A DNA stretch of 20,000 bases from an uncultured virus (IMG/VR IMGVR_UViG_3300044627_003678). Taxonomy: Duplodnaviria > Heunggongvirae > Uroviricota > Caudoviricetes. The DNA is taken from the IMG/VR virus record IMGVR_UViG_3300044627_003678. One strand, 5' to 3'. Shown here piece after piece: positions 2,881-20,000 of the stretch. The notes beneath the pieces were generated by a model, which was given only the letters and a program-made list of their open reading frames with translations, was not told the origin of the DNA and searched no databases. How positions within the stretch are numbered: the stretch's first letter is position 1; each line of letters begins with the position of its first letter. Position numbers and translations under genes: made by a program.

Positions 2881-2898
2881 TTTAGTAAACTGAATTAA

Positions 2899-2934: not shown

Positions 2935-2955
2935 CTATTTTAGGAGATTTTGAAA

Positions 2956-3761: not shown

Positions 3762-3773
3762 AGGAGAAGTAAA

Positions 3774-5351: not shown

Positions 5352-5355
5352 CAAA

Positions 5356-5712: not shown

Positions 5713-5775
5713 TGTTTCAGGCAATTATAAACATCAGATGATATAATTATCTTAAGTCATAATTAAGAGGTAAAC

Positions 5776-6333: not shown

Positions 6334-6354
6334 GGCGTAAGGGGAAACAAAAAA

Positions 6355-7962
6355 ATGGCAACAGTAGATAAAAACTTTAGAATTAAGAATGGTTTAGTTG
6401 TTGAGGGATCAACAGCTACAGTAAATGGATCTAATATCCTTACTGAAAACTCACTAGAATTTATTCAAGATACCGTAGCGGCACAACTTGTAGACGGAAC
6501 ACATACAAACATTTCAGTAAGTTATAATGACACTACTGGAACAATTAGTTTAACTGGCGCAGTAACATACACAGACGAGCAAGCACAAGATGCCGTTGGT
6601 AACGCAGTCGGAACTGGACTTTCATACAACGATACAACAGGTGCAATATCTGTTGACACAGCCACAATTCAGGCTCGTGTCGCAGATGTATCTGACACTG
6701 AAATTGGATACCTTAATGGCGTAACATCTTCAATTCAGACACAATTAGACGATAAGTCAACTGCAAGCAAAACCGAAACATTAACAAATAAGACTTTAAC
6801 ATCACCAAACATAAATGAAAACGTAGCCCTTACAGCAACCGCTACAGAACTTAACATTCTTGATGGTGCAACACTTTCTACAACAGAACTTAACTATGTA
6901 GATGGCGTAACCTCTTCAATTCAAACACAATTAAACAATAAATTTGATTCAGCAAATGCTTCAACAACAAATATTTCAGAAGGCACAAACCTCTACTTTA
7001 CAGACGAAAGAGCACAAGATGCTGTAGGAAACTCTGTAGGCAATGGTCTTGATTATGATGATGCAACAGGAGCAATTTCTGTAGACCCTTCAGAGTTTAC
7101 ATTAAACTCTATCGGCGCACCATCTGCAGCAGTAGATTTAAACAGTCAAAAGATTACTGGCCTTGCAACACCAACAGATGCAACAGACGCATCAACTAAA
7201 GGCTATGTTGACGGAGTAATTACAACAGAGGTATCAAATCGTAATGCTGCAATTTCAACAGCAGTTAGCAATTTAGTAGACGGCGCACCAGACCTTCTTA
7301 ATACTCTTAATGAATTAGCAGCAGCAATTAATGATGATGCTAACTACACAACAACTATTACAACAGCTCTAGGAACAAAAGCTCCTTTAGCATCACCAGC
7401 ATTAACTGGAGTACCTACTGCTCCAACAGCAGCAGCAGACACAAATACTACTCAAATAGCTACAACAGCTTTTGCTAAAGCAGAAGCAGACGCAGCACAG
7501 TCAGCAGCAGAAGCCACAGCATCAGCAGATGCAACATCAAAGGCTAACGCCGCTCAAGCAGCAGCAGAAGCCACAGCATCATCTGCTCTTTCTGGAGTAA
7601 CTGCAGGAACCACAGCGTTTACAGCAGTAAATGTTAACTCAGTAGCTAAGCAAATTGCTGCAACCACAGGTAATATTGCTACCGCAGCCGCAACCACAGC
7701 TTATGCATGGGCAAAGGCTTCATACCGAAGCGGAGAATTCCTTGTTAAGTCAAAAAGTGGAAATCACACAGAAGTTGCAAAAATTATGGTAACTCTAGAC
7801 TCTTCAGATAACGTCTATATCACAGAATATGGAATGTCATCAACAAGTGGAGTTGCACTTCAAACAGTTTCAGCAGATGTAAGCGGAACAGATGTAAGAA
7901 TTCGTGTAACACCTGCAAATAACAATACCGAAGTATTAATCACTGGTACACTTTTAGTATAA
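6355..7962 (+). CDS. Tail fibre-like protein
   Basis: RBS AAGGGG. Repeated TDExAQDAVG and GVTSSIQTQL motifs, the fibre motifs APDLLNTLNELAAAINDD and SPALTGVPTAPTAAADTNTTQIATTAF, and an Ala-rich coiled segment. Confidence 0.8.
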   Translation: MATVDKNFRIKNGLVVEGSTATVNGSNILTENSLEFIQDTVAAQLVDGTHTNISVSYNDTTGTISLTGAVTYTDEQAQDAVGNAVGTGLSYNDTTGAISVDTATIQARVADVSDTEIGYLNGVTSSIQTQLDDKSTASKTETLTNKTLTSPNINENVALTATATELNILDGATLSTTELNYVDGVTSSIQTQLNNKFDSANASTTNISEGTNLYFTDERAQDAVGNSVGNGLDYDDATGAISVDPSEFTLNSIGAPSAAVDLNSQKITGLATPTDATDASTKGYVDGVITTEVSNRNAAISTAVSNLVDGAPDLLNTLNELAAAINDDANYTTTITTALGTKAPLASPALTGVPTAPTAAADTNTTQIATTAFAKAEADAAQSAAEATASADATSKANAAQAAAEATASSALSGVTAGTTAFTAVNVNSVAKQIAATTGNIATAAATTAYAWAKASYRSGEFLVKSKSGNHTEVAKIMVTLDSSDNVYITEYGMSSTSGVALQTVSADVSGTDVRIRVTPANNNTEVLITGTLLV

Positions 7963-7977
7963 TTAAATAAAAGGCCA

Positions 7978-7998
7978 GGGGAGAGCCTGAATCTCCCC
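7978..7998. other. GC-rich intergenic hairpin
   Basis: GGGGAGA-GCCTGAA-TCTCCCC forms a perfect 7-bp stem flanked by A-rich sequence. There is no + strand U-tract. Confidence 0.45.
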
Positions 7999-8030
7999 AC
8001 AAAAAACAATTAGGGGATATGTGAACTTAA

Positions 8031-8387
8031 ATGGCAACAACAGATAAAAACTTTAAAGTTAAGAATGGAATAAATGTCGCAGGAGATGCCACATTTGATT
8101 CTAACGTCGTACTAGGTTCAACCCCCCTTAGATTTGACACAACAACAAACAAACTACAGATCCAATTAAATGGAACCTGGAGTCCAATTGCATTTGTGGC
8201 AGATATTCCAGATATGGCAACAGAAATAGGCTTTATGGATGTTGGTCTGGCTATTGATTACAATGGTCTTCCAATCTATACAGTTCAGGCAAACGGAGTA
8301 AATACAACAGCAACTAAATTCGCAGACGGTGGAGACCCATCAACTTCAACATATGGGTTAACATTTGATTCTGGAGTTATAGTCTAA
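8031..8387 (+). CDS. Small virion-associated protein
   Basis: The N-terminus MATTDKNFKVKNGI is nearly the same as MATVDKNFRIKNGL in the 6355 gene. Confidence 0.65.
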   Translation: MATTDKNFKVKNGINVAGDATFDSNVVLGSTPLRFDTTTNKLQIQLNGTWSPIAFVADIPDMATEIGFMDVGLAIDYNGLPIYTVQANGVNTTATKFADGGDPSTSTYGLTFDSGVIV

Positions 8388-8398
8388 TAAAAAATAAA

Positions 8399-8407
8399 TG
8401 CTATAAT
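8399..8407 (+). promoter_or_regulatory. Extended -10 promoter element
   Basis: Intergenic TGCTATAAT upstream of RBS AAGGGG and the ATG at 8430. A similar TGATATAAT lies at 5739-5747. Confidence 0.55.
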
Positions 8408-8429
8408 TAGCAAATAAGGGGTAATAAAT

Positions 8430-11093
8430 ATGTCAACAGTAAGAATTCAAGTAAGACGAGGAACAGCATCAGAATGGACCTCAGCAAATCCTACATTAGC
8501 CGCAGGTGAAATGGGTGTTGAAACAGACACCAGAAAAATTAAAGTTGGAACTGGCAACACAGCATGGACTAGCCTTGCATACATTGCATCAGATGCACCA
8601 GGAATTACAGAAATTGCACAAGATGCAATCGACTCAGCACTTTCAATGGGAGCAGGTCTTACAAAATCTTACAATGATGGCACAAATACAATTTCTCTTA
8701 ATATTGACTCATCAGTTGTTGCACTTAAATCTTATGTCGATGATCAAATAACTGGATTAGACAACGCAGCAGCAGCAGATTATGTATTACTAGCAGATGT
8801 TGGTAACGCAGGCGGACCAGCAAAGTTAGATGTCGATGGAAACTTATTGGTTCCAAAATCAAGCATTATTTTAGAGGGATCATCTGCAGACGCATATGAA
8901 ACAACCCTTACAGTAACAAATCCTACAGAAGATCAAACAATTACATTTCCAAATGCTACAGGAACAGTAGCAGTATTTACAAGTTCTGGAGATTTAGTAG
9001 TTCCTGGAAATTTGACAGTTTCTGGAGATACAACAACATTAAATACTGCAGAACTTCTTGTAGAAGATAATGAAATTATTTTAAATTCAAATGTATCTAC
9101 TGGAGCTCCGACTCTTAGTGCTGCATTCTCTGTAAGACGAGGATCTTCACTACCAGCATTTATTCAATGGGATGAAGTAAATGATAAATGGGTAGCTAAT
9201 TATGGAGCAGCAAATTCAAAAGAATTAGCAATTCTAGATAATTTAGATTCATTACAAAGTACGCTAGAAAGCTTTACTACTGGAGCTGTTCAAACCCACG
9301 AATCAGATACTACAAATATTCATGGTATTGCAGACACATCTAAGCTTCTTACAACAGATGGAACACAAACCGTTACAAACAAAACTTTAAATTCCCCTAA
9401 AATTAATGAGGATGTGCCTTTAACAGCAAGCGCTACAGAGTTAAATATACTTTACGGTGCAACATTATCTACAACAGAACTTAATTATGTAGACGGCGTT
9501 ACATCTTCTATACAAACACAATTAAATAGTAAGGCGTCATCAACTGACTTATCTACACACGAATCTGATACAACTAATATTCATGGTATTGCAGATACAT
9601 CTTTATTGGCAACAAAAACATATGCAGATAGCGCTGTTTCAACCCACGAATCAGATACTACAAATATTCACGGTATTGCAGACACATCTGCTCTTGCTAC
9701 AAAAACATATGCAGATAGCGCTGTTTCAACCCACGAATCAGATACTACAAATATTCACGGTATTGCAGACACATCTGCTCTTGCTACAAAAACATATGCA
9801 GACAATGCTGTAACTCAAGAAGCAATCACCACGGCATCAAATCTAGGAACAGCAGTTTCCAATCACAATTCTGCAACTACATCTGTACACGGTATTGCAG
9901 ACACATCTGCTCTTGCTACAAAGACATATGTAGACGACGCAGACAATTTAAAGTCTAATATAGCAGGACCAACATTTACTGGTACCGTAACAATACCTAC
10001 GCTTTCAGTAACAACAACAGCAACAGGAATTACAGCAACAATGGTTGGATTAGGAAATGTTGATAATACATCTGACGCCAACAAACCAGTATCAACTGCT
10101 ACACAAACAGCTTTAGACGCTAAACTAGCACTTGCTGGTGGAACAATGACAGGAGCACTAACACTTTCAGGTGCACCTACGTCAGATCTCCACGCAGTAA
10201 CTAAACAGTATGTTGATGGACTTGCAGCTGGAATTAACTTTCATCAACCAGTAATTGCAGCAACTGCAGGAAACCTTGCTGGAACATATAACAATGGTAC
10301 TTCTGGAGTGGGAGCAACATTAACAAAAGCAACAAATGGATCTATAGGAACTATCGACGGAGCAGCAGTTGCTGTAGGAGATAGAATTCTTCTTCGTGCA
10401 CAAACTGATGCTAAAGAAAATGGTATTTACACAATTACCGCTGTAGGAGATGGTTCAAATCCTTGGCAAATTACTCGTGCAGCAGACAGCGATAATAGTC
10501 CTGCGGGAGAAGTTTCAACTGGAGACTTCGTATTCGTAACATCTGGCTCATCAAATGGTTCTAAAGGCTTCCTTGTTAGTACAACAGGAACAATTACAAT
10601 CGGAACTACAAATATTAGCTACGTACAGTTTAATGCTTCTGAGGCAGTAATTGCTGGCACAAACATTACAAAGGATGGTGCAACAATTGCAGTAGAAAAT
10701 GCACCAACATTCTCAGGAGTAATAACAGCATCTTCTGGAGTAGCATTTTCAGATGGTACCCAAACAAAAGAAGGCGTTCCTTCAAGAACTCCAATTATTT
10801 CAAAAACTGCAAACTACACATTATCTGAACTATCTGAAAGAGACTCATTAATAGAGGTAGATTCTACAAGCCCAGTAACAATAACAATCCCAACTAACTC
10901 AGCAGTTGCTTATCCAATTGGAACAACTCTAGATATACTTGGTACAAATACTGGCTTAATTACAATTGCAGGAGATACTGGGGTAACTGTAAATGCTACT
11001 CCTGGATTAAAATTACGTACTCAATGGTCATCATGTACATTATTCAAGAGAGCAACCAACTCTTGGGTAGTATACGGAGATCTTAAGGCATAA
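8430..11093 (+). CDS. Long tail fibre protein with an Mtd_N (major tropism determinant N-terminal)-like domain
   Basis: N-terminal RIQVRRGTASEWTSANPTLAAGEMGVETDTRKIKVGTG..W..L.Y, His-containing repeats, and the fibre motifs VGLGNVDNTSDANKPVSTATQTALD and GDRILLRAQTDAKENGIY. Ends in WVVYGDL. Confidence 0.8.
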   Translation: MSTVRIQVRRGTASEWTSANPTLAAGEMGVETDTRKIKVGTGNTAWTSLAYIASDAPGITEIAQDAIDSALSMGAGLTKSYNDGTNTISLNIDSSVVALKSYVDDQITGLDNAAAADYVLLADVGNAGGPAKLDVDGNLLVPKSSIILEGSSADAYETTLTVTNPTEDQTITFPNATGTVAVFTSSGDLVVPGNLTVSGDTTTLNTAELLVEDNEIILNSNVSTGAPTLSAAFSVRRGSSLPAFIQWDEVNDKWVANYGAANSKELAILDNLDSLQSTLESFTTGAVQTHESDTTNIHGIADTSKLLTTDGTQTVTNKTLNSPKINEDVPLTASATELNILYGATLSTTELNYVDGVTSSIQTQLNSKASSTDLSTHESDTTNIHGIADTSLLATKTYADSAVSTHESDTTNIHGIADTSALATKTYADSAVSTHESDTTNIHGIADTSALATKTYADNAVTQEAITTASNLGTAVSNHNSATTSVHGIADTSALATKTYVDDADNLKSNIAGPTFTGTVTIPTLSVTTTATGITATMVGLGNVDNTSDANKPVSTATQTALDAKLALAGGTMTGALTLSGAPTSDLHAVTKQYVDGLAAGINFHQPVIAATAGNLAGTYNNGTSGVGATLTKATNGSIGTIDGAAVAVGDRILLRAQTDAKENGIYTITAVGDGSNPWQITRAADSDNSPAGEVSTGDFVFVTSGSSNGSKGFLVSTTGTITIGTTNISYVQFNASEAVIAGTNITKDGATIAVENAPTFSGVITASSGVAFSDGTQTKEGVPSRTPIISKTANYTLSELSERDSLIEVDSTSPVTITIPTNSAVAYPIGTTLDILGTNTGLITIAGDTGVTVNATPGLKLRTQWSSCTLFKRATNSWVVYGDLKA
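9555..9815 (+). repeat. 87-bp (29-aa) tandem repeat, three copies, plus dispersed partial copies
   Basis: THESDTTNIHGIADTS(A/L)LATKTYAD(S/N)AV units start at 9555, 9642 and 9729. Partial copies lie at 9294 and ~9885. Confidence 0.9.
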
Positions 11094-11106
11094 GGAGATA
11101 TTATAA

Positions 11107-12468
11107 ATGAGCAAAAGATCTGGTAGAAAATCACAAGCGACAAACGATTTCTTAGAGCCGCAAAAACCAATAATTAATTCTGTTTCAGATGTAGGAACGG
11201 GAAGAGCATATAATAATGGATCCGCTATTATTTCTTTTGAATTGCCAGCAGGATCACCAGAAGCATCTTCTTTTACAGTAACTTCAAGTCCTACAGGATT
11301 GACAGTTAGTGGGTCGTCTTCTCCATTAACAATGACTGGACTAGCATCAAATACAAGTTATACATTTACAGTTTATGGAACTAATTCATACGGAAACTCT
11401 GTATCTTCAGACCCATCTTCATCTATATTGGTAACTACAGTACCGCAGGCACCAGTTTCTCCGTCAGTATCTTCTTCTGTAGCAAACAGAGATGATGTTA
11501 CATGGACTGCCCCAGAAACTGGCGGTAAAGCAATTTCATCATATACCGTTGTATCAAGTGATGGGCCATCATATGAAAATATTACAGTCACATCACGTAA
11601 TATTGACGAAACTGGTGGGCAGACACAAAGTTATACCGTTTATGCAATTAATGCTAATGGAACATCTACTGGTGCTTCCACGAACTCAGTAACTACTTTC
11701 TTTTCTCCACCGTCATTCTTTGCACCTCCAGGATTCTTTAGTCCTCCAGGATTCTTTAGTCCTCCAGGATTCTTTGCACCTCCAGGATTCTTTGCACCTC
11801 CAGGATTCTTTGCACCTCCAGGATTCTTTGCACCTCCAGGATTCTTTGCACCTCCAGGATTCTTTGCACCTCCAGGATTCTTTAGTCCTCCAGGATTCTT
11901 TAGTCCTCCAGGATTCTTTGCACCTCCAGGATTCTTTGCACCTCCAAGATTCTTTGGCCCACCATACTTTAGCAAATGCTTACATGATGACACGCCAGTA
12001 ACAGTTGTTGGTGAAAATGATTCTATTGAGTATAAATCAGCAAAAGATGTTCAAGAAGGTGACTGGATATGGGCAGTAGATATTCAAGAACTGCCAGCAG
12101 ATGAAGCTGCTTATTCATCATTATTTTGGTCAAGTCCAACAGCAACATTTGGAGAGCTGGTAAAAACAGAAGTTATTAATAAATATACTTCTCTAGCAGA
12201 AGAAACAATTATTATTAATAATGATCCTTCTTCTAGGTTTACAGCAGAGCATCCAATGTTTATTACTAGAAACGGACAAAATAGTTTTATTTTGGCTGGA
12301 TCAATTCAGGTTGGAGACATATTATCTAAACATGATTCGAACGGTAATATTATTTCAGAAGAAATTATATCTTTAGAGGTAATTACCGAAGAATGTACTG
12401 TTCATACCTTCAACGCAGAACCATATGATTTAATTTATGCCAATGGCATATTAACGCATAATAAATAA
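11107..12468 (+). CDS. FN3-FN3-(FFxPPG)15-Hint domain protein
   Basis: RBS AAGGAG. Two FN3-like units (LTMTGLASNTSYTFTVYGTNSYG and VTWTAPETGGKAISSYTV...YTVYAINANG), then the hexapeptide repeat, then a Hint domain with C291 (CLHDDTPV), block B TAEH and terminal YANGILTHN-K-stop. Confidence 0.88.
   Translation: MSKRSGRKSQATNDFLEPQKPIINSVSDVGTGRAYNNGSAIISFELPAGSPEASSFTVTSSPTGLTVSGSSSPLTMTGLASNTSYTFTVYGTNSYGNSVSSDPSSSILVTTVPQAPVSPSVSSSVANRDDVTWTAPETGGKAISSYTVVSSDGPSYENITVTSRNIDETGGQTQSYTVYAINANGTSTGASTNSVTTFFSPPSFFAPPGFFSPPGFFSPPGFFAPPGFFAPPGFFAPPGFFAPPGFFAPPGFFAPPGFFSPPGFFSPPGFFAPPGFFAPPRFFGPPYFSKCLHDDTPVTVVGENDSIEYKSAKDVQEGDWIWAVDIQELPADEAAYSSLFWSSPTATFGELVKTEVINKYTSLAEETIIINNDPSSRFTAEHPMFITRNGQNSFILAGSIQVGDILSKHDSNGNIISEEIISLEVITEECTVHTFNAEPYDLIYANGILTHNK
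11698..11967 (+). repeat. 18-bp coding tandem repeat, 15 units
   Basis: Unit TTCTTT(GCA/AGT)CCTCCAGGA. The order is FFSPPS, FFAPPG, 2x FFSPPG, 6x FFAPPG, 2x FFSPPG, FFAPPG, FFAPPR, FFGPPY. Confidence 0.97.
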
Positions 12469-12470
12469 CC

Positions 12471-12499
12471 TAGACATTTTTAGATTATTTTGCTATAAT
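12471..12499 (+). promoter_or_regulatory. Near-consensus sigma70/sigmaA promoter heading the oxygenase cluster
   Basis: TAGACA (12471-12476), a 17 bp spacer, then TATAAT (12494-12499), with TG at 12491-12492. Confidence 0.75.
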
Positions 12500-12525
12500 A
12501 AATAAACTAGTAGAAAGAATTTATT

Positions 12526-13143
12526 TTGCAAAAAATAGAAGTAGGATATGGTATTTGGCTGTATGAAAACGTATTTCCAGATTCTCTTAATTTAATTGAA
12601 AGAGTAGAGAGTACAATAAAACAAAGCAACGGAATATATTCCTGGAAAGAAGCAATGGTAGGATGGAAGAAAAAAATTCCAGAATATAGAAATTGTTTAG
12701 ATTTTAAAATTGCAAAATCCAATAATTTTTCTATTATAAAAAATAAAAGTAGTCTAGAATTACAATCTATTTGGCAGGACTCTTATAATGCTCAAAAGGA
12801 ATGTTTAGAAGACTATTCAAGTATGTATAATATTAAATTAAATTATTGGGAATCATTTAATTTTGTTAAATATACAGAGGGTCATCATTTTGAAGAGCAC
12901 TCAGATCACGGCGACGCATATGTTTGTACAGTTTCTGGAGTAGGTTATTTAAATGATAATTATGATGGTGGCGAATTATATTTTCCAAAATTAAACATAT
13001 ACATTAAACCAAAAGCTGGGCAATTATACTTATTCCCATCTTCTTTTATATATTCTCATAAATCGCTACCAATAAAATCTGGTACAAAATATTCGATAGT
13101 AACAATGTTTGATTATAACGATAAGCATCATAAAGGAGTATAA
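12526..13143 (+). CDS. 2OG-Fe(II) oxygenase, P4H-like (#1)
   Basis: HSD...YLNDNYDGGELYF...YSH...KYS gives an HxD..H triad plus a basic 2OG-binding residue. The TTG start is uncertain. Confidence 0.88.
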   Translation: MQKIEVGYGIWLYENVFPDSLNLIERVESTIKQSNGIYSWKEAMVGWKKKIPEYRNCLDFKIAKSNNFSIIKNKSSLELQSIWQDSYNAQKECLEDYSSMYNIKLNYWESFNFVKYTEGHHFEEHSDHGDAYVCTVSGVGYLNDNYDGGELYFPKLNIYIKPKAGQLYLFPSSFIYSHKSLPIKSGTKYSIVTMFDYNDKHHKGV

Positions 13144-13839
13144 ATGTTAGAAAATGCAGAATACTTAGCACCAGGAATTATGGTCTATAGAAATGTTTTT
13201 ACAGAGTCAATGAATTTAGTTGCAAGATTAGAAAATGAATTATCAAAAGAAAACAACCCATATAAATGGAAAACTGCAAAAACAGGATATAATCTAGAAG
13301 ATAAAAGATATAGAGATTGTGCCGATTTTAAAATAAAAAGTAATCCTAATGGATATTTGATGCTAGGCGGAGAAAGCGTCCCCCCAGAAAATAAAAAAGA
13401 AACTGAATATGCTTTAGAAAAAATTTGGGAAGATTCATACGTAGCACAGATAGATCCAGTTAAAGACTATAGCAAAATGTTTGGGCTTGCTCCTTTAAAT
13501 TATTGGGAATCCTTTAATTTTGTTAAATACGGAGAAGATCAACATTTCCAAGTTCATTCTGATCACGGATATTCTTATATCTGTGTGCTCTCATCAGTCG
13601 GATATATAAATGACGATTATGAAGGCGGAGAGTTATTTTTTGATAAATTTAATTTAAAAATTAAACCAAAGGCTGGCGATCTATACCTATTTCCTTCATC
13701 TTATATATATTCTCACGCAGCTATGCCAGTCACAAAAGGTGTTAAGTATTCTATAGTAACTATGTTAGACTATCTAGAAGCACCACATACTCCAGAATAT
13801 AGAGAAATAGAAAAAAAATATACAGAAAATTATGCATAG
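13144..13839 (+). CDS. 2OG-Fe(II) oxygenase, P4H-like (#2), paralog of #1
   Basis: HSD...YINDDYEGGELFF...YSH...KYS. RBS AAGGAG. Confidence 0.9.
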   Translation: MLENAEYLAPGIMVYRNVFTESMNLVARLENELSKENNPYKWKTAKTGYNLEDKRYRDCADFKIKSNPNGYLMLGGESVPPENKKETEYALEKIWEDSYVAQIDPVKDYSKMFGLAPLNYWESFNFVKYGEDQHFQVHSDHGYSYICVLSSVGYINDDYEGGELFFDKFNLKIKPKAGDLYLFPSSYIYSHAAMPVTKGVKYSIVTMLDYLEAPHTPEYREIEKKYTENYA

Positions 13840-14543
13840 TGTATAAAGTTACAGCCTATAAAAATAATAACTCTGCAAATATTTCTCAAATAAATATTAA
13901 AAGAGACTGGATGGACAATACAGTAGATGGTCATGCATATAAGTGTTTTCCAGTAACATTAGCAAATGGCTTAGGGTGGGGCCTTTCATTTCCAAAAGAT
14001 ATTTCTTTTGTATGGGACGGAATATCAGACACATCTGGAAATCATGTTAAAATATTAGAAGGCGAAGAATACTGCTATACAGAAAGAGCTAATGCAACAA
14101 TAAGTTTTAAAACTGGAATAGTATTTGAAACAGATAAAGATGTTAGTTTGTTACAAATGCCAGTTCCAAATATGTTTATAGATGGGGCACAAGCATTTAC
14201 TACAATTATAAGTACATCATTTTTTAAAGGAGAGTTTCCCTGTGCATTAAGAATTACTAAACCTTTTACAAAAATTACTATAAAAGCTAATCAACCATTT
14301 ATATCAATTGTTCCAATATCTTTATCATATTTACAAAACTCTATAATTGAAATTGACAATTATAAAAATATAAAAAATAATGTAGTTTTAAAAGAAGAAG
14401 AGCACGTTAAAATTGTTAAAGAAAAAACAGATAGCGGTAAGTGGACTAATTTTTACAGAGATGCAGTAAACTATAAAGGTCAAAAAATAGGAGAGCATGA
14501 AGTAAAAGCAATAAGACTTTATGTTAATAATAAAAATGAATAA
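13839..14543 (+). CDS. DUF6065-like protein
   Basis: RDWMD....HAYKCFPVTLANGLGW...FVWDG and a C-terminal W..FYRDA, which I recall as DUF6065-type. The GTG start overlaps the upstream TAG. No HxD..H motif. Confidence 0.65.
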   Translation: MYKVTAYKNNNSANISQINIKRDWMDNTVDGHAYKCFPVTLANGLGWGLSFPKDISFVWDGISDTSGNHVKILEGEEYCYTERANATISFKTGIVFETDKDVSLLQMPVPNMFIDGAQAFTTIISTSFFKGEFPCALRITKPFTKITIKANQPFISIVPISLSYLQNSIIEIDNYKNIKNNVVLKEEEHVKIVKEKTDSGKWTNFYRDAVNYKGQKIGEHEVKAIRLYVNNKNE

Positions 14544-15255
14544 AATTATTTTTCATTCTTCAAGGCCATATAACAAAGACTCAAAAGACTTTTTGCCAGT
14601 ACCAGCAAAATTAAGCATTCCCAATTGGTTTTCCCAAGCAAGTAAATATTGGAAAAACGATGATGGATCTTATGTAACTGATAATTTTGGAGAAAGAGGA
14701 CTTGGATTTAAGTCTTGCCCAGCGTTACTAGATTCATTTTCTTTAGGGTATCTTTTAAAAACTCCATGTGATTTAGCTTTTTACGAATATAAAGGTGAGA
14801 TATACGTAGAAACGCCAAAAGGATATGAAGAGTTTTGTGCAAGAAGAGAAAAAATGCCAGAGTTTGTGGTACCAAGTGGATATAGAGAAACTCATTTTCA
14901 TTGGTGGCCAAATTGGGCTATGGAGACCCCCAAAGGATATAGCTTATTAGTTTTAAATCCCCTTAATAGATTTGATTTACCATTTTTAACAACTAATGGT
15001 ATTATAGATAGTGATATGTATACTATATCTGGCCTTATTCCATTTTTTTTAAAAAATGATTTTGTCGGGTTAATTCCAAAAGGAACTCCGTATGCACAAG
15101 TAATTCCATTTAAAAGAGAGGATTGGTCGATGGATCCAGTCCTTCATGAAAAAAAAGAAATGGTAAAAAAACACGTTAAGACTGCTAAAAATTTTAGAGT
15201 AAAAGGCGGAGGAATTTATAAAAAAAATATTTGGGTACCAAAGGAATATAAATAG
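14536..15255 (+). CDS. Conserved phage protein, distantly DUF6065-like
   Basis: FKSCPALLDSFSLGYLLKTPCD...ETPKGYSLL..NPLNR...GIIDSD...IPKGTPYAQVIPFKREDW parallels the KCFP..A..LGW..P.D...IKANQPFISIVPI pattern of the preceding gene. Start is 14536 or 14521. Confidence 0.6.
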   Translation: MNKIIFHSSRPYNKDSKDFLPVPAKLSIPNWFSQASKYWKNDDGSYVTDNFGERGLGFKSCPALLDSFSLGYLLKTPCDLAFYEYKGEIYVETPKGYEEFCARREKMPEFVVPSGYRETHFHWWPNWAMETPKGYSLLVLNPLNRFDLPFLTTNGIIDSDMYTISGLIPFFLKNDFVGLIPKGTPYAQVIPFKREDWSMDPVLHEKKEMVKKHVKTAKNFRVKGGGIYKKNIWVPKEYK

Positions 15256-15264
15256 GAGGCACAT

Positions 15265-15984
15265 ATGTTTGAAAACGCTAAAGGAAAAGACATAATTCAA
15301 AATGTTGATTCTATAAACGATAATAAGTATATTAGAACAGCAAGGCAATCAATAACACCTTCTGGCTATTTCGGATCATCTTCAGATATGATACAAGAAA
15401 TAGAAAACTTTTTAACAAATGAAGAACAAGAATTTTTATTAAATTTTGCTAAAAATAATAAAATTTGGGATGTTACAGAATCCCATTATAATGAAAATGG
15501 AACAATAATTTATGATCATAGGGTATGGGAAAATAGAGTAGCCACACTTAATACTTTAATGAAAGCAAATCAAGATGTTGTTCTAATGCTAAGAAATATT
15601 ATAGATAGATTAAAACCTGTTATTGAATCATTTTATAATGTAGAGGCCATGTCTACCCACCCAGCTATTGTACGTTGGCCAAAAGGAACATATCAATTCC
15701 CCCATGCAGATAAAGAGTTACACGAGGGCCCAGACGCAGGAAAAGAAAATGACTTCCCATGGTACGATTTAGGAACAATATTTTATTTAAATGATGACTA
15801 TGAAGGCGGGGAGTTACATTTTCCAAAACAAAATATATCATTTAAACCAAAAGCTAGAGCAGCATATTTTTTCCCTGGAGATATGAATTATATTCACGGG
15901 GTTAATGTTGTTAAAGAAGGATGTAGATACACATCTCCTTGGTTTTGGACCATAACTAAATTAAAGGATGACAATAATGTATGA
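15265..15984 (+). CDS. 2OG-Fe(II) oxygenase, P4H-like (#3)
   Basis: HAD...YLNDDYEGGELHF...YIHGV...RYT. RBS AGGAGG. Confidence 0.9.
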   Translation: MFENAKGKDIIQNVDSINDNKYIRTARQSITPSGYFGSSSDMIQEIENFLTNEEQEFLLNFAKNNKIWDVTESHYNENGTIIYDHRVWENRVATLNTLMKANQDVVLMLRNIIDRLKPVIESFYNVEAMSTHPAIVRWPKGTYQFPHADKELHEGPDAGKENDFPWYDLGTIFYLNDDYEGGELHFPKQNISFKPKARAAYFFPGDMNYIHGVNVVKEGCRYTSPWFWTITKLKDDNNV

Positions 15985-16702
15985 TATAAAACAACATAAA
16001 GACGATGTTTTTACAATAGATAACTTTTTAAATGAAGACGAATGCAAAAGAATTATAGATTATTTAGAAATGTCTGTGCAGAATGATTACATAAAATGGA
16101 ATCAAATTTCTTTTTATGAATCGTATGCTATGGGTTTTTGGGAATATGATAATAATTTAATTCCGTTTGGTTTTGACCCAAAATATTTTCACAGCCTTAA
16201 AGAAAAAATAAAAAATGCTGGAGAAATTTGTTTTAACAATAAGCTGTCTGAAATTAGTTATCATGCACAAAAATGGACAGAAGGAGCATTTGCAGGATTT
16301 CATTCCGATAACTCTGATGAACACGGTAACCCTACAGCATTTCAAAGAAGTAAATATGCAATATTTTTATATTTAAATGATAATTTTGATGGTGGAAATT
16401 TAAATTTTGAACATTATCCAATTAATATAAAACCAAAAACTGGAATGATTTCAATATTTAAAGGTGGATATAAGAATGAGCACGAAGTAACTACAGTTAA
16501 AAATGGAGAGAGATATACTATTGGATCATTTTGGGACGATGCAGATGCAGTCTACACAGATGAAGAAAAAGCTAAATGGGAAGTGGAACTAAAGGGAATA
16601 AGATCAGAACAAGATTTAATGTATAAAAAATGGGAACAAGATAGACAAAATGGAATAATTCCAACATATAAGAGTAAATACGAAAAGGAGAAAAATGCAT
16701 GA
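15977..16702 (+). CDS. 2OG-Fe(II) oxygenase, P4H-like (#4)
   Basis: IDNFLNEDEC, then HSD...YLNDNFDGG...EHEV...RYT. AAGGA at 15964-15968 favours the ATG at 15977 over 15968. Confidence 0.88.
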   Translation: MYDIKQHKDDVFTIDNFLNEDECKRIIDYLEMSVQNDYIKWNQISFYESYAMGFWEYDNNLIPFGFDPKYFHSLKEKIKNAGEICFNNKLSEISYHAQKWTEGAFAGFHSDNSDEHGNPTAFQRSKYAIFLYLNDNFDGGNLNFEHYPINIKPKTGMISIFKGGYKNEHEVTTVKNGERYTIGSFWDDADAVYTDEEKAKWEVELKGIRSEQDLMYKKWEQDRQNGIIPTYKSKYEKEKNA

Positions 16703-17517
16703 GTAACCAGTATCAAAGAATAGTAATTTATCCAAAAATAGAGGTATATAGAAATTTATTGCCAAATGTAGAAGATTTATATCAAACTATGAAAGAATCT
16801 GAAAAAACATCTGATGGCAAATACTATTTAAGAAAATGGGATAAGTGGTCAGTTTTTGGAACCTATACTCAACAAAAACACGAAGATTCAGAAGCTAGAG
16901 AGTATGGCGAAATGTATGATAAAGAAAAACTTTTATCTGATAGTGTTTATGAAGCATATAACATTGCAATAAATGAATATATAAAAAACAATAATGTTGT
17001 TATGCCAGAGGGAGCGCAATTAATGTCTTCCTCATTTTCAAAATATAAAAAAGATTTAGATGTTTTAGAAAATAATCTAGCAATGCAGTATCACACAGAT
17101 TTTAAAATATTTGAAGCTGAATGGCCAGGTTCAAAGTTTTTTTTAACATGCACAACATACATTAATGACGACTATGATGGTGGAGATATTGAATTTTTTA
17201 TAGATGGACAATTTGTTTCACACAAGCCAAAAGCGGGAGACATTTTAGTCTTCCCTTCAGTGCCACCATATTTTCATGGAGTAAAAACAATTAAAAAAGG
17301 AGAAAAGTTTTTTGTAAGAAACTTTATTACCTATATTTCAGACGGGTCACAATCTTGGTTAAATAGTCAAAAAATTTATGGACCTAGAGAATGGCTTAAA
17401 ATAGAAGAAGAAAGAATTAAAAGAGAAATGCCAGAAGCAATGCTTTATTTTGAAGATGGAAAACAAATAAAGTATTCAGAAAAAATGAAAAATAATGAAA
17501 ACAACAATACTATGTGA
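16699..17517 (+). CDS. 2OG-Fe(II) oxygenase, P4H-like (#5)
   Basis: HTD...YINDDYDGGDIEF...YFHGV...KFF. ATGA overlap with the upstream gene, RBS AAGGAG. Confidence 0.88.
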   Translation: MSNQYQRIVIYPKIEVYRNLLPNVEDLYQTMKESEKTSDGKYYLRKWDKWSVFGTYTQQKHEDSEAREYGEMYDKEKLLSDSVYEAYNIAINEYIKNNNVVMPEGAQLMSSSFSKYKKDLDVLENNLAMQYHTDFKIFEAEWPGSKFFLTCTTYINDDYDGGDIEFFIDGQFVSHKPKAGDILVFPSVPPYFHGVKTIKKGEKFFVRNFITYISDGSQSWLNSQKIYGPREWLKIEEERIKREMPEAMLYFEDGKQIKYSEKMKNNENNNTM

Positions 17518-18097
17518 TAATGTTGTATATTATGAAAATTTAATTGATGATTTAAATCATTTTATTAATTTAATTAATGATGTAGAACAAGAAAATGCAA
17601 ATATTTTTTCTAATTGGAAGCCATGGTATGCTAGTAATGCAAATGTGCTATATGGAGAATTTAGAGAGGCTTCATTTACAAATATATTAAATAATTGTAA
17701 TGAAGAATCAAGTTCTTTTATTATTGCAAAAACTCTTAAAAACTTAATAGATTTTTGTGTAGAGGATTATTGTAAAAAAACTAATCAAGATTCTGGGTAC
17801 ATGCCAGACCATTTTACAATAAGAAAATATAATACAAGTGCATACATGGGTCCTCACGTAGATACGGAAGATATTTATAACATTAAGCAACCATCAATTT
17901 CAATGGTATTCTATTTAAACGATGATTATGAGGGTGGAGAAATAGAGTTTCCAAATCAAGGAATTAAGATTAAGCCATCTGCTGGAAGCTTAGTAATTTT
18001 TCCATCTTATCAGCCATATATGCATGATCCAAAACCAACAAAATCTGGTTTAAAATATATGATACCTCTTTTTTGGTTTAAAGAGAAATTTTGGTAA
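17495..18097 (+). CDS. 2OG-Fe(II) oxygenase, P4H-like (#6)
   Basis: HVD...YLNDDYEGGEIEF...YMH...KYM. Confidence 0.88.
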   Translation: MKTTILCDNVVYYENLIDDLNHFINLINDVEQENANIFSNWKPWYASNANVLYGEFREASFTNILNNCNEESSSFIIAKTLKNLIDFCVEDYCKKTNQDSGYMPDHFTIRKYNTSAYMGPHVDTEDIYNIKQPSISMVFYLNDDYEGGEIEFPNQGIKIKPSAGSLVIFPSYQPYMHDPKPTKSGLKYMIPLFWFKEKFW

Positions 18098-18127
18098 TTT
18101 ACAATTTTTTAAAATTTAGGGTATAAT
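18098..18127 (+). promoter_or_regulatory. Promoter for a probable leaderless mRNA
   Basis: TTTACA (18098-18103), an 18 bp spacer, then TATAAT (18122-18127). The ATG is 6 nt further on and there is no clear SD. Confidence 0.6.
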
Positions 18128-18133
18128 TAAAAG

Positions 18134-20000
18134 ATGTCTAATAAATTAATGGTTATGAAAGATAACCCAATAGGATTCTGGACACTTGATAGTGCTCAAA
18201 ATGGCACGCTAAAAGATTTTTCTGGATGCAATAATGATGCATCATATAGTGGAATTTTTGATACATCAACCAAAATGATACCATTATCATTAGGCGGACA
18301 AAACTGTTTAGAGGTTAATTCAGACAATAATATAAATTTTCCAATAATAAACGGGTACTACCAGAATAATTTCCCAGGAGGATTCGGCACAGTTTATTAC
18401 GGAGATAATGATTTTACATTAGAATGCTGGATATATCCTAAAATATATACGGATAAAATAACAAAAATACTTGGAGATGCTTCTAAAAATATTGGAATAT
18501 TCTATAAAGATAAAAATATAATTTTTAAATTAGACCAAGAGTCTTTAGAGTATAATCTTCCATATGTAAATAAATCAATTCACATTGTATGTGTTTATTT
18601 AGTCAAAGAGGCTCATATCTATATAGACGGCATATTATGTATTAGTAAAAATATAGAAGGCAATCCATTTACAAATACTCAAGTATTAATATCATCTGGC
18701 CCTACATCTGACACACAAGATACTTTTTTGATAGATGATGTAGCAATATATAGATATGGGCTACCAAGTACAAAAATTTTAGATCATTATTTAAATGATA
18801 GTTACACCAGTCCAGCACAAATATCACAATCTGACAACGGAGAAATTTTTGAGTTCTATGATACAGACATTAGTAAAGTTTTTTCATATTCATATCCATT
18901 TAATAGATCATGGCAAGAATTAATAACAGAAGATCTTTATTATGATCAAACAAATCAATATATACAAATAAAAAGTAGTGAAATCCCAGAAGAAAAAAGT
19001 ATTGTTTTAGAAGACACTATATTTTTGCCAGCTGCAATAACAATGAATTCTTCAAAAATAGATTGGTTTGGAGACAGTGGAGTTACTGTAGAAACTAGCA
19101 CAGACGGAATAAATTATTTTTTATGTTCAAATGGAGAATCTATACCACAATATAATTCTTTAGAATTTAATGATAGTAGACTTTTAAATATAAGAATAAC
19201 AATCTCTTCTGAAGATATATCTAAATATTTACCAAAATTATATAATTTAAATATTAGCTTTTATAATAATCAAATTATGTATTCAAAAAATGGATCAGGG
19301 TATTTATCCAAAATTGAAAATTTAGAATACTATTTGGGATCAAAAAAATATTCAGTTGTATCTAGAGATTTAAGAAATGGGATATTATCGCCAAGCGAAT
19401 CTGGATTTAAAATTAATTTAACTAATAAAATAAAAAGCATTGAGTTTTTTTATACCCCATTTTTCCTGCTTCCAGTAACCGATGCAGAAATTGTAAACAT
19501 TCCTTTATCTCAAAACAATGTTATTAATGCTGAAATTAATCCAAATACAGAAACTATAGACGTAAACCCAGCAGAAGTGGTAGACCTACTTCCTAAATTT
19601 AGCGGATTAATTTTACAAGATTCAACAGAAACTGGGTATTATTGGGATAGTCTAGGAAATGTCAATAAAGATAATATTGACTCTATATACGTAAATGGTG
19701 TGGATGCGACCCCAGAAACTAATATTTCTAATATATTTAAATATAATAATTTATATCATGTAGTCATTAACTTAACGGAGCCAGTAGAAGGGGAATTAAC
19801 TATAAATCATAAATCTAATGGATCGGTAAAGGCTCTATATCAATATATGTCATTTTACCAAAATTCATTAGATTATAATAAGATTATTAATCATTATGAT
19901 TTATATACCTCTAGGCAGTCCTATCAAACCAGCGGATCTTCCATAACCTTGTCCGAAAATTCAGTAAACCTATATAATAATGACTGGCTTGTGATACAAA
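18134..20000 (+). CDS. LamG/concanavalin-A-like domain virion protein, 3'-truncated (not in the ORF track)
   Basis: My translation is open for 622 codons to the window end: MSNKLMVMKDNPIGFWTLD...KDFSG.NN...DFTLECWIYP...HIVCVY....IYIDG...IDDVAIYRYGL....ILDHY. Confidence 0.82.
   Translation, partial: MSNKLMVMKDNPIGFWTLDSAQNGTLKDFSGCNNDASYSGIFDTSTKMIPLSLGGQNCLEVNSDNNINFPIINGYYQNNFPGGFGTVYYGDNDFTLECWIYPKIYTDKITKILGDASKNIGIFYKDKNIIFKLDQESLEYNLPYVNKSIHIVCVYLVKEAHIYIDGILCISKNIEGNPFTNTQVLISSGPTSDTQDTFLIDDVAIYRYGLPSTKILDHYLNDSYTSPAQISQSDNGEIFEFYDTDISKVFSYSYPFNRSWQELITEDLYYDQTNQYIQIKSSEIPEEKSIVLEDTIFLPAAITMNSSKIDWFGDSGVTVETSTDGINYFLCSNGESIPQYNSLEFNDSRLLNIRITISSEDISKYLPKLYNLNISFYNNQIMYSKNGSGYLSKIENLEYYLGSKKYSVVSRDLRNGILSPSESGFKINLTNKIKSIEFFYTPFFLLPVTDAEIVNIPLSQNNVINAEINPNTETIDVNPAEVVDLLPKFSGLILQDSTETGYYWDSLGNVNKDNIDSIYVNGVDATPETNISNIFKYNNLYHVVINLTEPVEGELTINHKSNGSVKALYQYMSFYQNSLDYNKIINHYDLYTSRQSYQTSGSSITLSENSVNLYNNDWLVIQ

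What the first reader, a model, noticed from the sequence alone, without database searches (positions are those of the whole stretch)
11107..18097. Candidate phage peptide/protein tailoring system: (FFxPPG)15-Hint precursor followed by six P4H-like oxygenases and two DUF6065-like proteins
Seen: a protein with 15 tandem Pro-Pro/Phe-Phe hexapeptides fused to a Hint domain is followed immediately by eight closely packed genes. Six carry intact HxD..H 2OG-Fe(II) motifs. Known: collagen-type prolyl 4-hydroxylases act on X-Pro-Gly and Pro-rich repeats, and 12 of the units contain PPG. A repetitive precursor beside a battery of tailoring enzymes is the layout of RiPP clusters. Inference: the repeat is the substrate, modified by Pro and perhaps Phe hydroxylation. 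The product would be either a heavily modified virion appendage or modified repeat peptides, with Hint providing processing. I know of no characterised system like this, but cannot check the literature.
Basis: partly seen in the sequence, partly recalled or inferred. Interest (0 to 1): 0.92.

Follow-up and report, generated by a model that had tools for sequence, protein, structure and literature searches.

The report
Phage Phe-Pro fibre protein with hydroxylases
An uncultured lake phage encodes a fibre-region protein with a greasy phenylalanine-proline repeat and a self-cutting end, directly followed by six collagen-hydroxylase-like enzymes, and because repeat and enzymes travel together in many phages the repeat is a concrete, testable candidate target for phage oxygenases whose role has been unknown for years.

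Summary
At 11107-12468 lies a 453-aa protein with an FN3 domain, 15 FFxPPx units (12 with PPG) and a C-terminal Hint domain (Cys291, TAEH, His-Asn-Lys-stop). It is followed by six PF13640 oxygenases with intact HxD..H plus Lys/Arg, one DUF6065 protein and a distant paralogue of it.

The oxygenases are prolyl-hydroxylase-like by sequence and by fold. FFxPPx proteins are followed by this cassette in 57 of 67 testable cases, and the 10 misses are second copies in contigs that hold the cassette. In the reverse test 39 of 40 testable cassettes have a Pro/aromatic-repeat protein just upstream. The pairing also occurs in a separate ~205-kb phage lineage. A Streptomyces phage with the same backbone lacks both parts. 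Relatives insert a sulfotransferase plus an Asp/Asn-hydroxylase-like gene, or a GT60 GlcNAc-transferase, between repeat and cassette.

It is not RiPP-like. The repeat sits on fibre-module proteins, and its tail can be a Hint domain, a Peptidase_S74 chaperone, a Cys-rich knot or nothing. DUF6065 has a dUTPase-like fold, as Iyer et al. 2010 noted beside phage dioxygenase arrays. No chemistry has been shown. This scan has found the same system before on other DNA (at least 13 earlier notes).

The parts
8430..11093 (+). Tail-fibre-type protein (887 aa, Mtd_N start) directly upstream of the repeat protein. The same fibre families precede the repeat gene in a second, unrelated phage lineage.
   Evidence: Pfam Mtd_N 3e-16. 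phrog_8745, phrog_8780 and phrog_21978 match here. The same PHROGs match the gene before the small repeat protein in L039 and L075.
11107..12468 (+). Repeat-Hint protein (453 aa): a basic N-terminus, an FN3 region, an (FFxPPx)15 tract and a Hint domain.
11212..11421 (+). FN3 domain (residues 36-105). A second FN3-like stretch up to about residue 195 is inferred only.
   Evidence: Pfam fn3 E 2.7e-8
11698..11967 (+). 15 FFxPPx units (12 FFxPPG). This tract is the candidate hydroxylation substrate.
   Evidence: family statistics
11977..12465 (+). Hint / bacterial-intein-like domain. It runs from Cys291, has TAEH in block B, and ends His-Asn-Lys then stop.
12526..13143 (+). Oxygenase 1 (205 aa), the orthogroup that always sits first, before DUF6065.
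   Evidence: PF13640 1.2e-11. The model (pLDDT 89.5) matches prolyl hydroxylases best. H125, D127, H178 and K188 are conserved in 75 sequences.
13144..13839 (+). Oxygenase 2 (231 aa), 51% identical to oxygenase 1.
13839..14543 (+). DUF6065 protein (234 aa) with a dUTPase-like fold and a conserved Cys36.
   Evidence: PF19541 3e-28. Model pLDDT 88.7. VIA Z 10.1 to 1dun and Foldseek E 2.5e-4 to dUTPases. Invariant residues.
14521..15255 (+). Distant DUF6065 paralogue (244 aa).
   Evidence: phrog_7084 3.4e-30. hhalign to the DUF6065 alignment: 86%, E 4.7e-6, with the Cys aligned.
15265..15984 (+). Oxygenase 3 (239 aa)
15968..16702 (+). Oxygenase 4 (244 aa)
16699..17517 (+). Oxygenase 5 (272 aa)
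17495..18097 (+). Oxygenase 6 (200 aa)
18134..19999 (+). Laminin_G_3 / ConA-like protein that closes the cassette in most relatives. It belongs to the backbone shared with Streptomyces phages.
   Evidence: Pfam 1.2e-10

Best explanation
The 453-aa protein is a virion fibre-module protein. Its (FFxPPx)15 tract is modified after translation in the infected cell by the cassette that follows it.

The six P4H-like 2OG/Fe(II) oxygenases hydroxylate the tract, most likely at its prolines. The conserved, distinct orthogroups would each serve a different position or regiochemistry. The dUTPase-fold DUF6065 proteins would act as non-catalytic helpers of the first oxygenase.

The C-terminal Hint domain then cuts itself off at Lys290/Cys291. 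The mature protein would end just behind the tract, as Hint-less homologues do naturally.

Shown here: the anatomy, the intact catalytic residues, the prolyl-hydroxylase-like fold, and the conserved pairing of repeat and cassette. Inferred: the substrate, the residue modified, the role of DUF6065, Hint cleavage, and presence in the virion.
For: 1. The enzymes are prolyl-hydroxylase-like.
- The six-oxygenase profile finds Bacillus anthracis P4H (9e-12), P3H1, PiuC, PBCV-1 vCPH 5c5t (4.4e-7) and PHD2.
- The oxygenase 1 model's top Foldseek hits are all prolyl hydroxylases: 2jig, 4iw3, 6t8m, 3gze and 5c5t, at E about 1e-10 and TM 0.6-0.7.
- HxD..H and Lys/Arg at +10 are kept in every sequence that has a residue there, in each of the six orthogroups; each orthogroup has 49-97 unique sequences plus the window's own.

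2. Forward linkage.
- A DNA pattern for FFxPPxFFxPPxFF hit at least 125 viral stretches.
- Of 67 unique repeat ORFs with at least 3 kb downstream, 57 have an oxygenase within 3 kb downstream and 54 have a DUF6065-type gene within 4.5 kb.
- All 10 misses are second repeat genes in contigs whose other repeat gene carries the cassette.
- Upstream, only 1 of 46 has an oxygenase within 3 kb.

3. Reverse linkage. Of 40 unique DUF6065-anchored cassettes with at least 2.5 kb upstream, 39 have a repeat or Pro/aromatic-tract ORF ending within 3 kb.

4. Independence from one backbone.
- The pairing holds across three N-terminal architectures: FN3 domains, 700-900-aa fibre proteins, and an ~85-aa domain.
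- It holds across at least five kinds of tail.
- It holds in a 205-kb phage that is 97% complete and has no relative of this phage's capsid protein.
- Streptomyces phage Gilson shares the GT-RNR...LamG-portal-protease-capsid backbone but has neither the repeat protein nor the cassette.

5. Relatives add enzymes that act on protein hydroxyl groups, placed between repeat and cassette.
- Sulfotransfer_2 plus Asp_Arg_Hydrox in L014 and L025.
- GT60 'GlcNAc' (5.3e-20) in L026.

6. Self-removing tails are interchangeable.
- The tail is Hint in most loci and Peptidase_S74 in L026 (7.4e-10).
- Many small homologues stop at '...FK' right after the tract.
- Cleavage at Cys291 here would leave '...FFGPPYFSK'.
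Against: - All evidence is gene context and homology. No mass shift, hydroxyproline or virion proteomics exists.
- Adjacency cannot separate the repeat protein from its neighbours, the upstream fibre and the downstream LamG protein, as targets.
- Most sampled loci belong to one large lake-phage clade with conserved gene order, so the number of independent events is small.
- Gly follows Pro-Pro in only 46% of 1678 units, so the classical collagen X-Pro-Gly site is not conserved.
- Related oxygenase arrays exist without any FFxPPx protein (Syn9). In the 205-kb phage 3 of 7 PF13640 genes lie far from the repeat gene.
- For PBCV-1, the reference list of the Chloroviruses review (PMC7019647) cites an unpublished amino-acid analysis that found no hydroxyproline in particles. 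A viral P4H plus Pro-rich repeats therefore does not guarantee a modified virion.
Confidence: 0.55

Rival explanations
1. The oxygenases act on something else, and the repeat protein is merely a fixed neighbour within a mobile fibre module. Possible targets are the neighbouring fibre or LamG proteins, a host protein such as EF-Tu or a ribosomal protein, or a small molecule or secondary metabolite as Iyer et al. proposed for cyanophage arrays.
For: - Structural neighbours of oxygenase 1 include the EF-Tu prolyl hydroxylase of Pseudomonas putida (4iw3) and the Dictyostelium prolyl hydroxylase involved in hypoxia sensing (6t8m).
- Iyer et al. 2010 read the Syn9 array as secondary-metabolite synthesis.
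- The Syn9 array follows tail-fibre genes but has no FFxPPx protein.
- One lineage adds AurF-like and methyltransferase genes.
- A fibre gene of the same PHROG families precedes the repeat gene in both lineages.
Against: - The repeat tract, not any particular N-terminal domain or fibre, is the constant partner of the cassette.
- The cassette is strongly directional: 57 of 67 downstream against 1 of 46 upstream.
- Large second repeat proteins of one lineage carry their own oxygenase next door (L036, L037, L042).
- No halogenase, NRPS or transporter lies in this cluster.
Confidence: 0.27
2. The oxygenases are auxiliary metabolic genes. They would change host 2-oxoglutarate/succinate or oxygen-dependent signalling and have no dedicated phage substrate.
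For: Phage 2OG-Fe(II) oxygenases are annotated as auxiliary metabolic genes in PHROGs (phrog_61) and in cyanophage papers (search listing only).
Against: - Five to six distinct orthogroups are kept in a fixed order inside a structural module.
- They are absent from the backbone relative Gilson.
- They are always beside the repeat protein.
Confidence: 0.08
3. RiPP-like system: the repeats are cut out and released as modified hexapeptides, with Hint supplying the processing.
For: A repetitive sequence sits beside a battery of tailoring enzymes. Small homologues of 108-156 aa look superficially like leader plus core.
Against: - There is no protease, transporter or recognition-element gene.
- The tract is fused to FN3 domains or to 700-900-aa fibre proteins.
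- One tail is a Peptidase_S74 domain, named in Pfam as the chaperone of endosialidase; that such chaperones serve trimeric fibres is recalled.
- Hint cuts once, at its own boundary.
- The gene sits between fibre genes and the portal gene.
Confidence: 0.03

Closest known systems
Chlorovirus PBCV-1 prolyl 4-hydroxylase (vCPH, PDB 5c5t) and that virus's Pro-rich repeats (Eriksson et al. 1999; seen only in the reference list of PMC7019647, content recalled)
   Same: A virus-encoded P4H-type enzyme and virus-encoded Pro-rich tandem repeats as the presumed substrate. 5c5t is among the best sequence and fold matches.
   Different: PBCV-1 has one enzyme, in a eukaryotic virus, not adjacent to a dedicated substrate gene. 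Here there are five to nine paralogous enzymes plus dUTPase-fold partners in a fixed order behind an aromatic FFxPPx protein of a bacterial virus.
Tandem dioxygenase array of Synechococcus phage Syn9 with a dUTPase-fold, conserved-Cys protein (Iyer, Abhiman, de Souza, Aravind 2010, PMC2938197; passages read)
   Same: A tandem array of unlike 2OG dioxygenases in a phage, accompanied by a dUTPase-fold protein with a conserved cysteine, directly after tail-fibre genes.
   Different: Syn9's members are mostly 2OG-FeII_Oxy_5, JmjC and DUF6445 families plus two Trp halogenases. Pfam gives no PF19541 hit there and no FFxPPx protein is nearby. The published reading was secondary metabolism, not a structural-protein substrate.
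Bacterial neighbourhoods of beta-hydroxylases and sulfotransferases with collagen-like or tail-collar proteins (Iyer et al. 2010)
   Same: A co-encoded fibrous or repeat protein was proposed as the substrate, hydroxylated and then sulfated. Relatives L014 and L025 place Asp_Arg_Hydrox and Sulfotransfer_2 genes between repeat and cassette.
   Different: The window's own phage and its complete 113-kb relative have no sulfotransferase. The repeat is not collagen-like, because Gly is not at every third residue.
Type-A bacterial intein-like (BIL) domains, e.g. PDB 2lwy
   Same: The Hint fold is the best profile match (4.8e-7). Cys1, TxxH and the terminal His-Asn are present. It stands at a protein's end and cannot splice.
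   Different: Here it caps a phage fibre-module protein and is followed by a single Lys and a stop. In relatives the block-B His is often Gln, Cys1 is Ser in 3 of 26, and His-Asn is kept in only 12 of 26.
Skp1 hydroxyproline-GlcNAc pathway (prolyl hydroxylase PhyA plus GT60 Gnt1; pathway recalled)
   Same: A P4H-type enzyme together with a GT60 'GlcNAc' transferase (PF11397, 5.3e-20) sits next to the repeat protein in relative L026. A Dictyostelium prolyl hydroxylase (6t8m) is a top fold match.
   Different: GT60 is absent from this window's record and from its complete relative. The target would be a repeat tract, not a single Pro.
Hydroxyproline-rich structural proteins (plant extensins, mussel foot protein repeats; recalled, an analogy only)
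   Same: Short Pro-rich tandem repeats that are heavily hydroxylated after translation to build extracellular or adhesive fibres.
   Different: There is no homology. No hydroxylation has been shown here. The aromatic residues are Phe, not Tyr.

Membership tests
2OG-Fe(II) oxygenase, P4H-type (PF13640) | Pfam model above its gathering score | tested here: met
   All six genes score 29.4-48.1 bits against a cut-off of 27.
2OG-Fe(II) oxygenase, P4H-type (PF13640) | HxD...H iron triad and a basic residue that binds the 2OG C5 carboxylate | tested here: met
   The triad is invariant among the six. It is also kept in each orthogroup (49-97 unique sequences plus the window's own), with K or R at +10; the only exceptions are 2-3 gapped rows in orthogroups 5 and 6. 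That the +10 residue binds 2OG is recalled, not tested.
2OG-Fe(II) oxygenase, P4H-type (PF13640) | Double-stranded beta-helix fold closest to prolyl hydroxylases | tested here: met
   The oxygenase 1 model has pLDDT 89.5. The top Foldseek hits are 2jig, 4iw3, 6t8m, 3gze and 5c5t at E about 1e-10. Only oxygenase 1 was folded.
2OG-Fe(II) oxygenase, P4H-type (PF13640) | Prolyl hydroxylase activity on a defined substrate | not testable with these tools
   This needs an enzyme assay or mass spectrometry.
Collagen-type P4H substrate / collagen triple helix | X-Pro-Gly sites; Gly at every third residue | tested here: not met
   12 of 15 units here have PPG, but only 46% of 1678 units in 145 homologues do. 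The other every-third position is A, S or G, with Ala at 48%.
Hint / intein superfamily (BIL-like) | Family profile match | tested here: inconclusive
   Pfam Intein_splicing scores 19.1 bits, below its cut-off of 35.8. A profile of 26 homologous tails finds 2lwy at 4.8e-7 and a series of inteins.
Hint / intein superfamily (BIL-like) | Nucleophile at position 1, block-B TxxH, terminal His-Asn | tested here: met
   Cys291, TAEH at residue 379, and the ending ...THNK.
Splicing intein | Cys, Ser or Thr at +1 of a C-extein | tested here: not met
   His-Asn is followed by Lys and then a stop.
DUF6065 (PF19541) | Pfam model above its gathering score | tested here: met
   13839-14543 scores 99.3 bits against 26.6. 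14521-15255 has no Pfam hit and is related only by profile comparison.
dUTPase | Trimeric jelly-roll fold plus conserved Asp-containing catalytic motifs (motifs recalled) | tested here: not met
   The fold matches (Z 10.1, rmsd 4.7, 119 residues aligned to 1dun). None of the 17 invariant columns of 25 homologues is Asp or Glu. Trimer formation was not tested.
RiPP biosynthetic cluster | Short leader-core precursor with a recognition element, protease and/or exporter | tested here: not met
   The precursor is a 453-aa FN3 protein. Pfam and PHROGs find only oxygenases and DUF6065-type proteins in the cluster.

The most novel reading that the evidence does not exclude
The cassette writes a position-specific hydroxylation pattern on an aromatic polyproline rod. 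Each conserved oxygenase orthogroup would install a different hydroxyl, for example C4 or C3 of either proline, and possibly the beta-carbon of Phe. The Cys-bearing dUTPase-fold protein would hold the tract for the first enzyme. The product would be the first hydroxyproline-rich virion protein of a bacterial virus, sulfated or O-GlcNAc-modified in some lineages. Its modified C-terminal rod would be exposed by Hint or S74 self-cleavage and would stiffen the fibre or stick it to the host envelope.
Probability: 0.15. Interest if true: 0.9.

Novelty: new variant of a known kind. Interest (0 to 1): 0.68.

Why it matters
2OG-Fe(II) oxygenases are among the most common unexplained genes of aquatic phages. 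They are usually filed as 'auxiliary metabolic genes'. The one detailed published reading I found, for Syn9, was secondary metabolism.

Here the array has a constant, simple and synthesisable neighbour, (FFxPPx)n. That turns the question into a bench test: peptide plus enzyme plus Fe/2OG/ascorbate, then look for +16 Da.

If the tract is the substrate, several things would follow:
- Bacterial viruses would be making hydroxyproline-rich, and in some lineages perhaps sulfated or glycosylated, virion proteins.
- A role would open up for DUF6065.
- A set of five or six related hydroxylases with possibly different site specificities on one hexapeptide would become available for enzymology.

Tried and rejected
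- Complex prediction (oxygenase 1 alignment plus Fe plus residues 192-251 of the repeat protein): no answer (score 0.01, mark 0.32, controls not run). This is no evidence either way.
- The look-up of sequencing runs: no RNA holder listed. All 20 holders, labelled lake water metagenome, are flagged as possible sources of this DNA.
- Read laying on four of these runs: the contigs stop inside the tract (11754 and 11917) and none bridges it. The number of units could therefore be neither confirmed nor shown to vary.
- INPHARED phages:
  - No megablast match of the region.
  - No tblastn match of the repeat protein or of DUF6065.
  - The paralogue hits only haloarchaeal HF1/HF2-type viruses, where it stands alone.
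- Genome-contig scan with the DUF6065 profile: only 2 MAG contigs. Nothing was learnt about cellular contexts.
- PF07068 (T4 gp23) in the 205-kb lineage: nothing rang anywhere, controls included, so that phage's type stays unknown.
- Literature:
  - 'DUF6065': 0 papers.
  - '2OG-Fe' + oxygenase + phage + hydroxyproline: 0 papers.
  - 'prolyl 4-hydroxylase' / bacteriophage / hydroxyproline / virion, 'prolyl hydroxylase' / phage / tail fiber / proline-rich repeat and freshwater / actinophage / 2OG-Fe / metagenom: by title and abstract of the rows listed, none describes this system.
- Collagen-like triple helix: rejected as a strict reading, because Gly is not at every third residue.
- DUF6065 as a dUTPase: rejected, because no acidic residue is conserved.
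- The 117-aa ORF on the opposite strand (11640-11993, 'KNPGGA' repeats) is the mirror image of the repeat and is not counted as a gene.
- I did not use the search for homologous proteins, the search of protein representatives or the protein-atlas search.

Full report
**What is in the window**

The window is part of a 35,975-base viral record. CheckV rates it 33% complete, and the window lies on its reverse strand. All genes of interest are on the + strand. Their order is:
- a GT4 glycosyltransferase fragment
- a class II ribonucleotide reductase
- about nine fibre-like genes (2950-11093), the last with an Mtd_N start
- the repeat protein (11107-12468)
- six PF13640 oxygenases and two DUF6065-type genes (12526-18097)
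- a Laminin_G_3 protein (18134 onward)

In the rest of the record come portal, protease, major capsid protein, adaptor and a tape-measure protein of more than 1,867 aa. The phage is therefore long-tailed. Gaps between the cluster genes run from -23 to +57 nt.

**Check of the observation**

The 453-aa protein holds 15 FF.PP. units at residues 198-287, and 12 of them end in Gly. In 2000 residue shuffles the largest count of FF.PP was 1. The DNA repeat has an 18-nt period and 94% matches.

Pfam finds one FN3 domain. It finds the intein splicing domain only below its cut-off. A profile of 26 homologous tails finds the bacterial intein-like domain 2lwy (4.8e-7) and then a run of inteins. Cys291, TAEH and the ending His-Asn-Lys-stop are in place. 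The domain can therefore attack the bond before Cys291 but cannot splice.

The six oxygenases share invariant His-x-Asp...His. 13839-14543 is DUF6065 (3e-28). 14521-15255 is a remote paralogue: phrog_7084, and hhalign 86% at E 4.7e-6 with the conserved Cys aligned.

One caveat concerns the unit number. One otherwise identical contig has 22 units.

**What the enzymes look like**

The six-sequence profile finds these structures:
- Bacillus anthracis P4H (about 9e-12)
- prolyl 3-hydroxylase 1
- PiuC
- the Chlorella virus enzyme 5c5t
- PHD2

An AlphaFold model of oxygenase 1 has pLDDT 89.5 (15-row alignment). Its best Foldseek hits are all prolyl hydroxylases: 2jig, 4iw3, 6t8m, 3gze and 5c5t, at E about 1e-10 and TM 0.6-0.7.

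The oxygenases of all fetched loci sort into six orthogroups. Each has 49-97 unique sequences plus the window's own. In each, the triad and a Lys/Arg ten residues after the second His are kept in every sequence that has a residue there.

The DUF6065 model has pLDDT 88.7 and a dUTPase-like fold. VIA-align gives Z 10.1, rmsd 4.7 over 119 residues to 1dun. Eight chains score Z >= 8, all of them dUTPases. Foldseek gives E 2.5e-4. None of its 17 invariant columns is acidic, and a Cys is invariant. It is not a dUTPase.

**Is the repeat tied to the cassette?**

Close relatives (59-100% identity) keep the whole block. That alone shows only conserved gene order, so I searched in both directions.

Forward search. 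I called oxygenase and DUF6065-type genes with HMMs built from the window's proteins and spot-checked them with Pfam.
- 118 unique repeat ORFs have at least 3 units. 51 were dropped because less than 3 kb lay downstream.
- Of the remaining 67, 57 have an oxygenase within 3 kb downstream, and 54 have a DUF6065-type gene within 4.5 kb.
- All 10 misses are second repeat genes in contigs whose other repeat gene carries the cassette.
- Upstream, 1 of 46 has an oxygenase within 3 kb.

Reverse search. The DUF6065 profile found at least 563 viral stretches, of which only the best 80 are returned.
- 63 unique cassettes lie in the 70 new loci. 23 were dropped for short flanks.
- Of the remaining 40, 39 have a repeat or Pro/aromatic-tract ORF ending within 3 kb upstream.
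- The single miss is a 4.9-kb fragment.

**How independent is this?**

Most loci belong to one clade with the same LamG-portal backbone. Four observations reach beyond that clade:
- The tract is carried by three N-terminal architectures: two or three FN3 domains, 700-900-aa fibre proteins, and an ~85-aa domain. It is followed by at least five kinds of tail.
- A separate lineage has the small repeat gene flanked by an oxygenase on the opposite strand and then oxygenase, DUF6065, oxygenase. Its record is 205 kb and 97% complete. It has no relative of this phage's capsid protein at E <= 0.001.
- In both lineages the gene before the repeat gene is a fibre protein of the same PHROG families. So fibre, repeat protein and cassette move as one module.
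- Streptomyces phage Gilson has a capsid protein 60% identical and the same order GT, GT, RNR, [endolysin], LamG homologue, small gene, portal, protease, capsid. It has no fibres, no repeat protein and no cassette between RNR and LamG.

**Cassette anatomy**

The order is conserved: oxygenase 1/2 type, DUF6065, [paralogue], then oxygenases 3, 4/5 and 6.
- The commonest form is 1-a-3-5-4-6, in 22 loci.
- The window's form, 1-2-a-b-3-4-5-6, occurs in 15 loci.
- DUF6065 almost always directly follows the first oxygenase (or the first two).

Relatives insert further enzymes between repeat gene and cassette:
- Sulfotransfer_2 (1.8e-7) plus Asp_Arg_Hydrox (1.3e-11) in L014 and L025.
- A GT60 'GlcNAc' transferase (5.3e-20) in L026.
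- The 205-kb lineage adds AurF-like, methyltransferase and 2OG-FeII_Oxy_5 genes.

Neither GT60 nor the sulfotransferase is found in this record or in its complete 113-kb relative.

**The repeat and its tails**

145 unique repeat ORFs hold 1678 units.
- Phe-Phe and Pro-Pro define the unit.
- Position 3 is small: A 48%, S 33%, G 14%.
- Position 6 is G in 46% and otherwise S, A, R, L, F, V or N.

The tract is therefore neither collagen nor a strict X-Pro-Gly substrate.

The tails vary:
- Hint domains. Of the 26 aligned, 23 start with Cys and 3 with Ser, and 12 end in His-Asn.
- One Peptidase_S74 domain (Pfam's 'chaperone of endosialidase'; 7.4e-10).
- Cys-rich knots.
- Short peptides.
- Nothing at all ('...FK' then stop).

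Two self-removing modules and natural stops occupy the same place. This suggests that the mature protein ends right behind the tract. Cleavage at Cys291 would leave '...FFGPPYFSK'. Where a genome has two repeat proteins they often share the same tail. All of this paragraph's conclusions are inference.

**Most likely mechanism (confidence about 0.55)**

The fibre-module protein is hydroxylated on its tract by the cassette, probably at Pro. The several orthogroups would supply different positions or regiochemistry, and DUF6065 would help the first enzyme. Hint then removes itself.

The anatomy, catalytic residues, fold and linkage are shown. The substrate, the site, the helper role, the cleavage and virion location are inferred.

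Points against:
- There is no chemistry at all.
- Adjacency cannot exclude the neighbouring fibre or the LamG protein as targets.
- Few of the linkage events are independent.
- Related arrays exist without such a protein (Syn9).
- In the 205-kb phage 3 of 7 PF13640 genes lie elsewhere.
- The reference list of the Chloroviruses review cites an unpublished analysis that found no hydroxyproline in PBCV-1 particles.

**Comparison with what is known**

Iyer et al. [quoted passage not shown] They read that array as secondary metabolism. In the same paper they proposed that bacterial collagen-like or tail-collar proteins are hydroxylated and then sulfated by co-encoded enzymes.

The present system joins these two ideas in a phage and supplies a defined candidate substrate.

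My literature searches found no description of FFxPPx proteins or of DUF6065. I judged the listed papers by title and abstract only.

This scan has met the same system before on other genomes, with the same reading. Those notes gave me the lead to the Iyer paper. The tests above are my own.

**Verdict**

It is a new variant of a known kind, namely viral or bacterial P4H-type enzymes with co-encoded Pro-rich structural proteins. Interest is 0.68, because it makes the long-open question of what phage 2OG oxygenases do directly testable.

Noticed in passing
window 8430-11093: The 887-aa fibre protein carries the motif HESDTTNIHGIADTS four times (residues 290, 377, 406, 435). The last three are spaced 29 residues apart. 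This is an internal repeat of unknown role.
   Followed up: no
window 11000-13000: G+C drops from about 0.40-0.41 (10-12 kb) to 0.28-0.31 over the whole cassette and the LamG gene. The cause may be amino-acid composition or a different origin of the cassette.
   Followed up: no
window 649-18134, compared with L209 (Streptomyces phage Gilson): Relative to Gilson's GT-GT-RNR-endolysin-LamG-portal order, this phage carries about 15 kb (fibre genes, repeat protein and cassette) between RNR and the LamG homologue, where Gilson has an endolysin.
   Followed up: partly
L138 (Halorubrum phage HF2), locus 5857-6741: The DUF6065 paralogue has 25-31% identical relatives in 49 haloarchaeal tailed-virus records. 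In HF2 the gene stands alone, beside RNR and a few genes from the ConA-like virion protein VP1, with no annotated oxygenase in the 12.7 kb shown.
   Followed up: partly
L026 7692-9378: A 236-aa repeat protein ends in a Peptidase_S74 domain (Pfam 'chaperone of endosialidase') and is followed by a GT60 'GlcNAc' transferase gene.
   Followed up: partly
L014 7215-8484; L025 7231-8494: A sulfotransferase and an Asp/Asn beta-hydroxylase-family gene lie between the repeat-Hint gene and the P4H-like cassette. About eleven unique repeat genes show the same ~1.25-kb gap.
   Followed up: partly
L081 7370-8480; L023 4531-5650: In the Ser1-type Hint lineage, two ORFs of about 185 and 201 aa fill the gap between repeat gene and cassette. 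Neither has a Pfam or PHROG match.
   Followed up: partly
L039 10980-13477: The 205-kb-type lineage adds 2OG-FeII_Oxy_5, an AurF-like di-iron oxygenase and a methyltransferase a few genes after the small repeat gene.
   Followed up: no
L015, L035, L036, L038, L065, L083: Genomes with two repeat proteins (one of about 280-470 aa, one of 700-920 aa) often have the same tail on both, for example FGSRFIRSY or the same Hint start. This suggests exchange between the two C-termini.
   Followed up: no
window 11704-11749 (run X7, record 21): A 1,026-base contig of one lake run lies on the tract only. It continues into sequence that would encode the '...INYTVGAF' end typical of the small repeat proteins, so that second type probably occurs in the same run.
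   Followed up: no
window 3306-3761: The 151-aa fibre-region protein has a short collagen-like stretch (GPQGPAGKT), seen in the translation.
   Followed up: no
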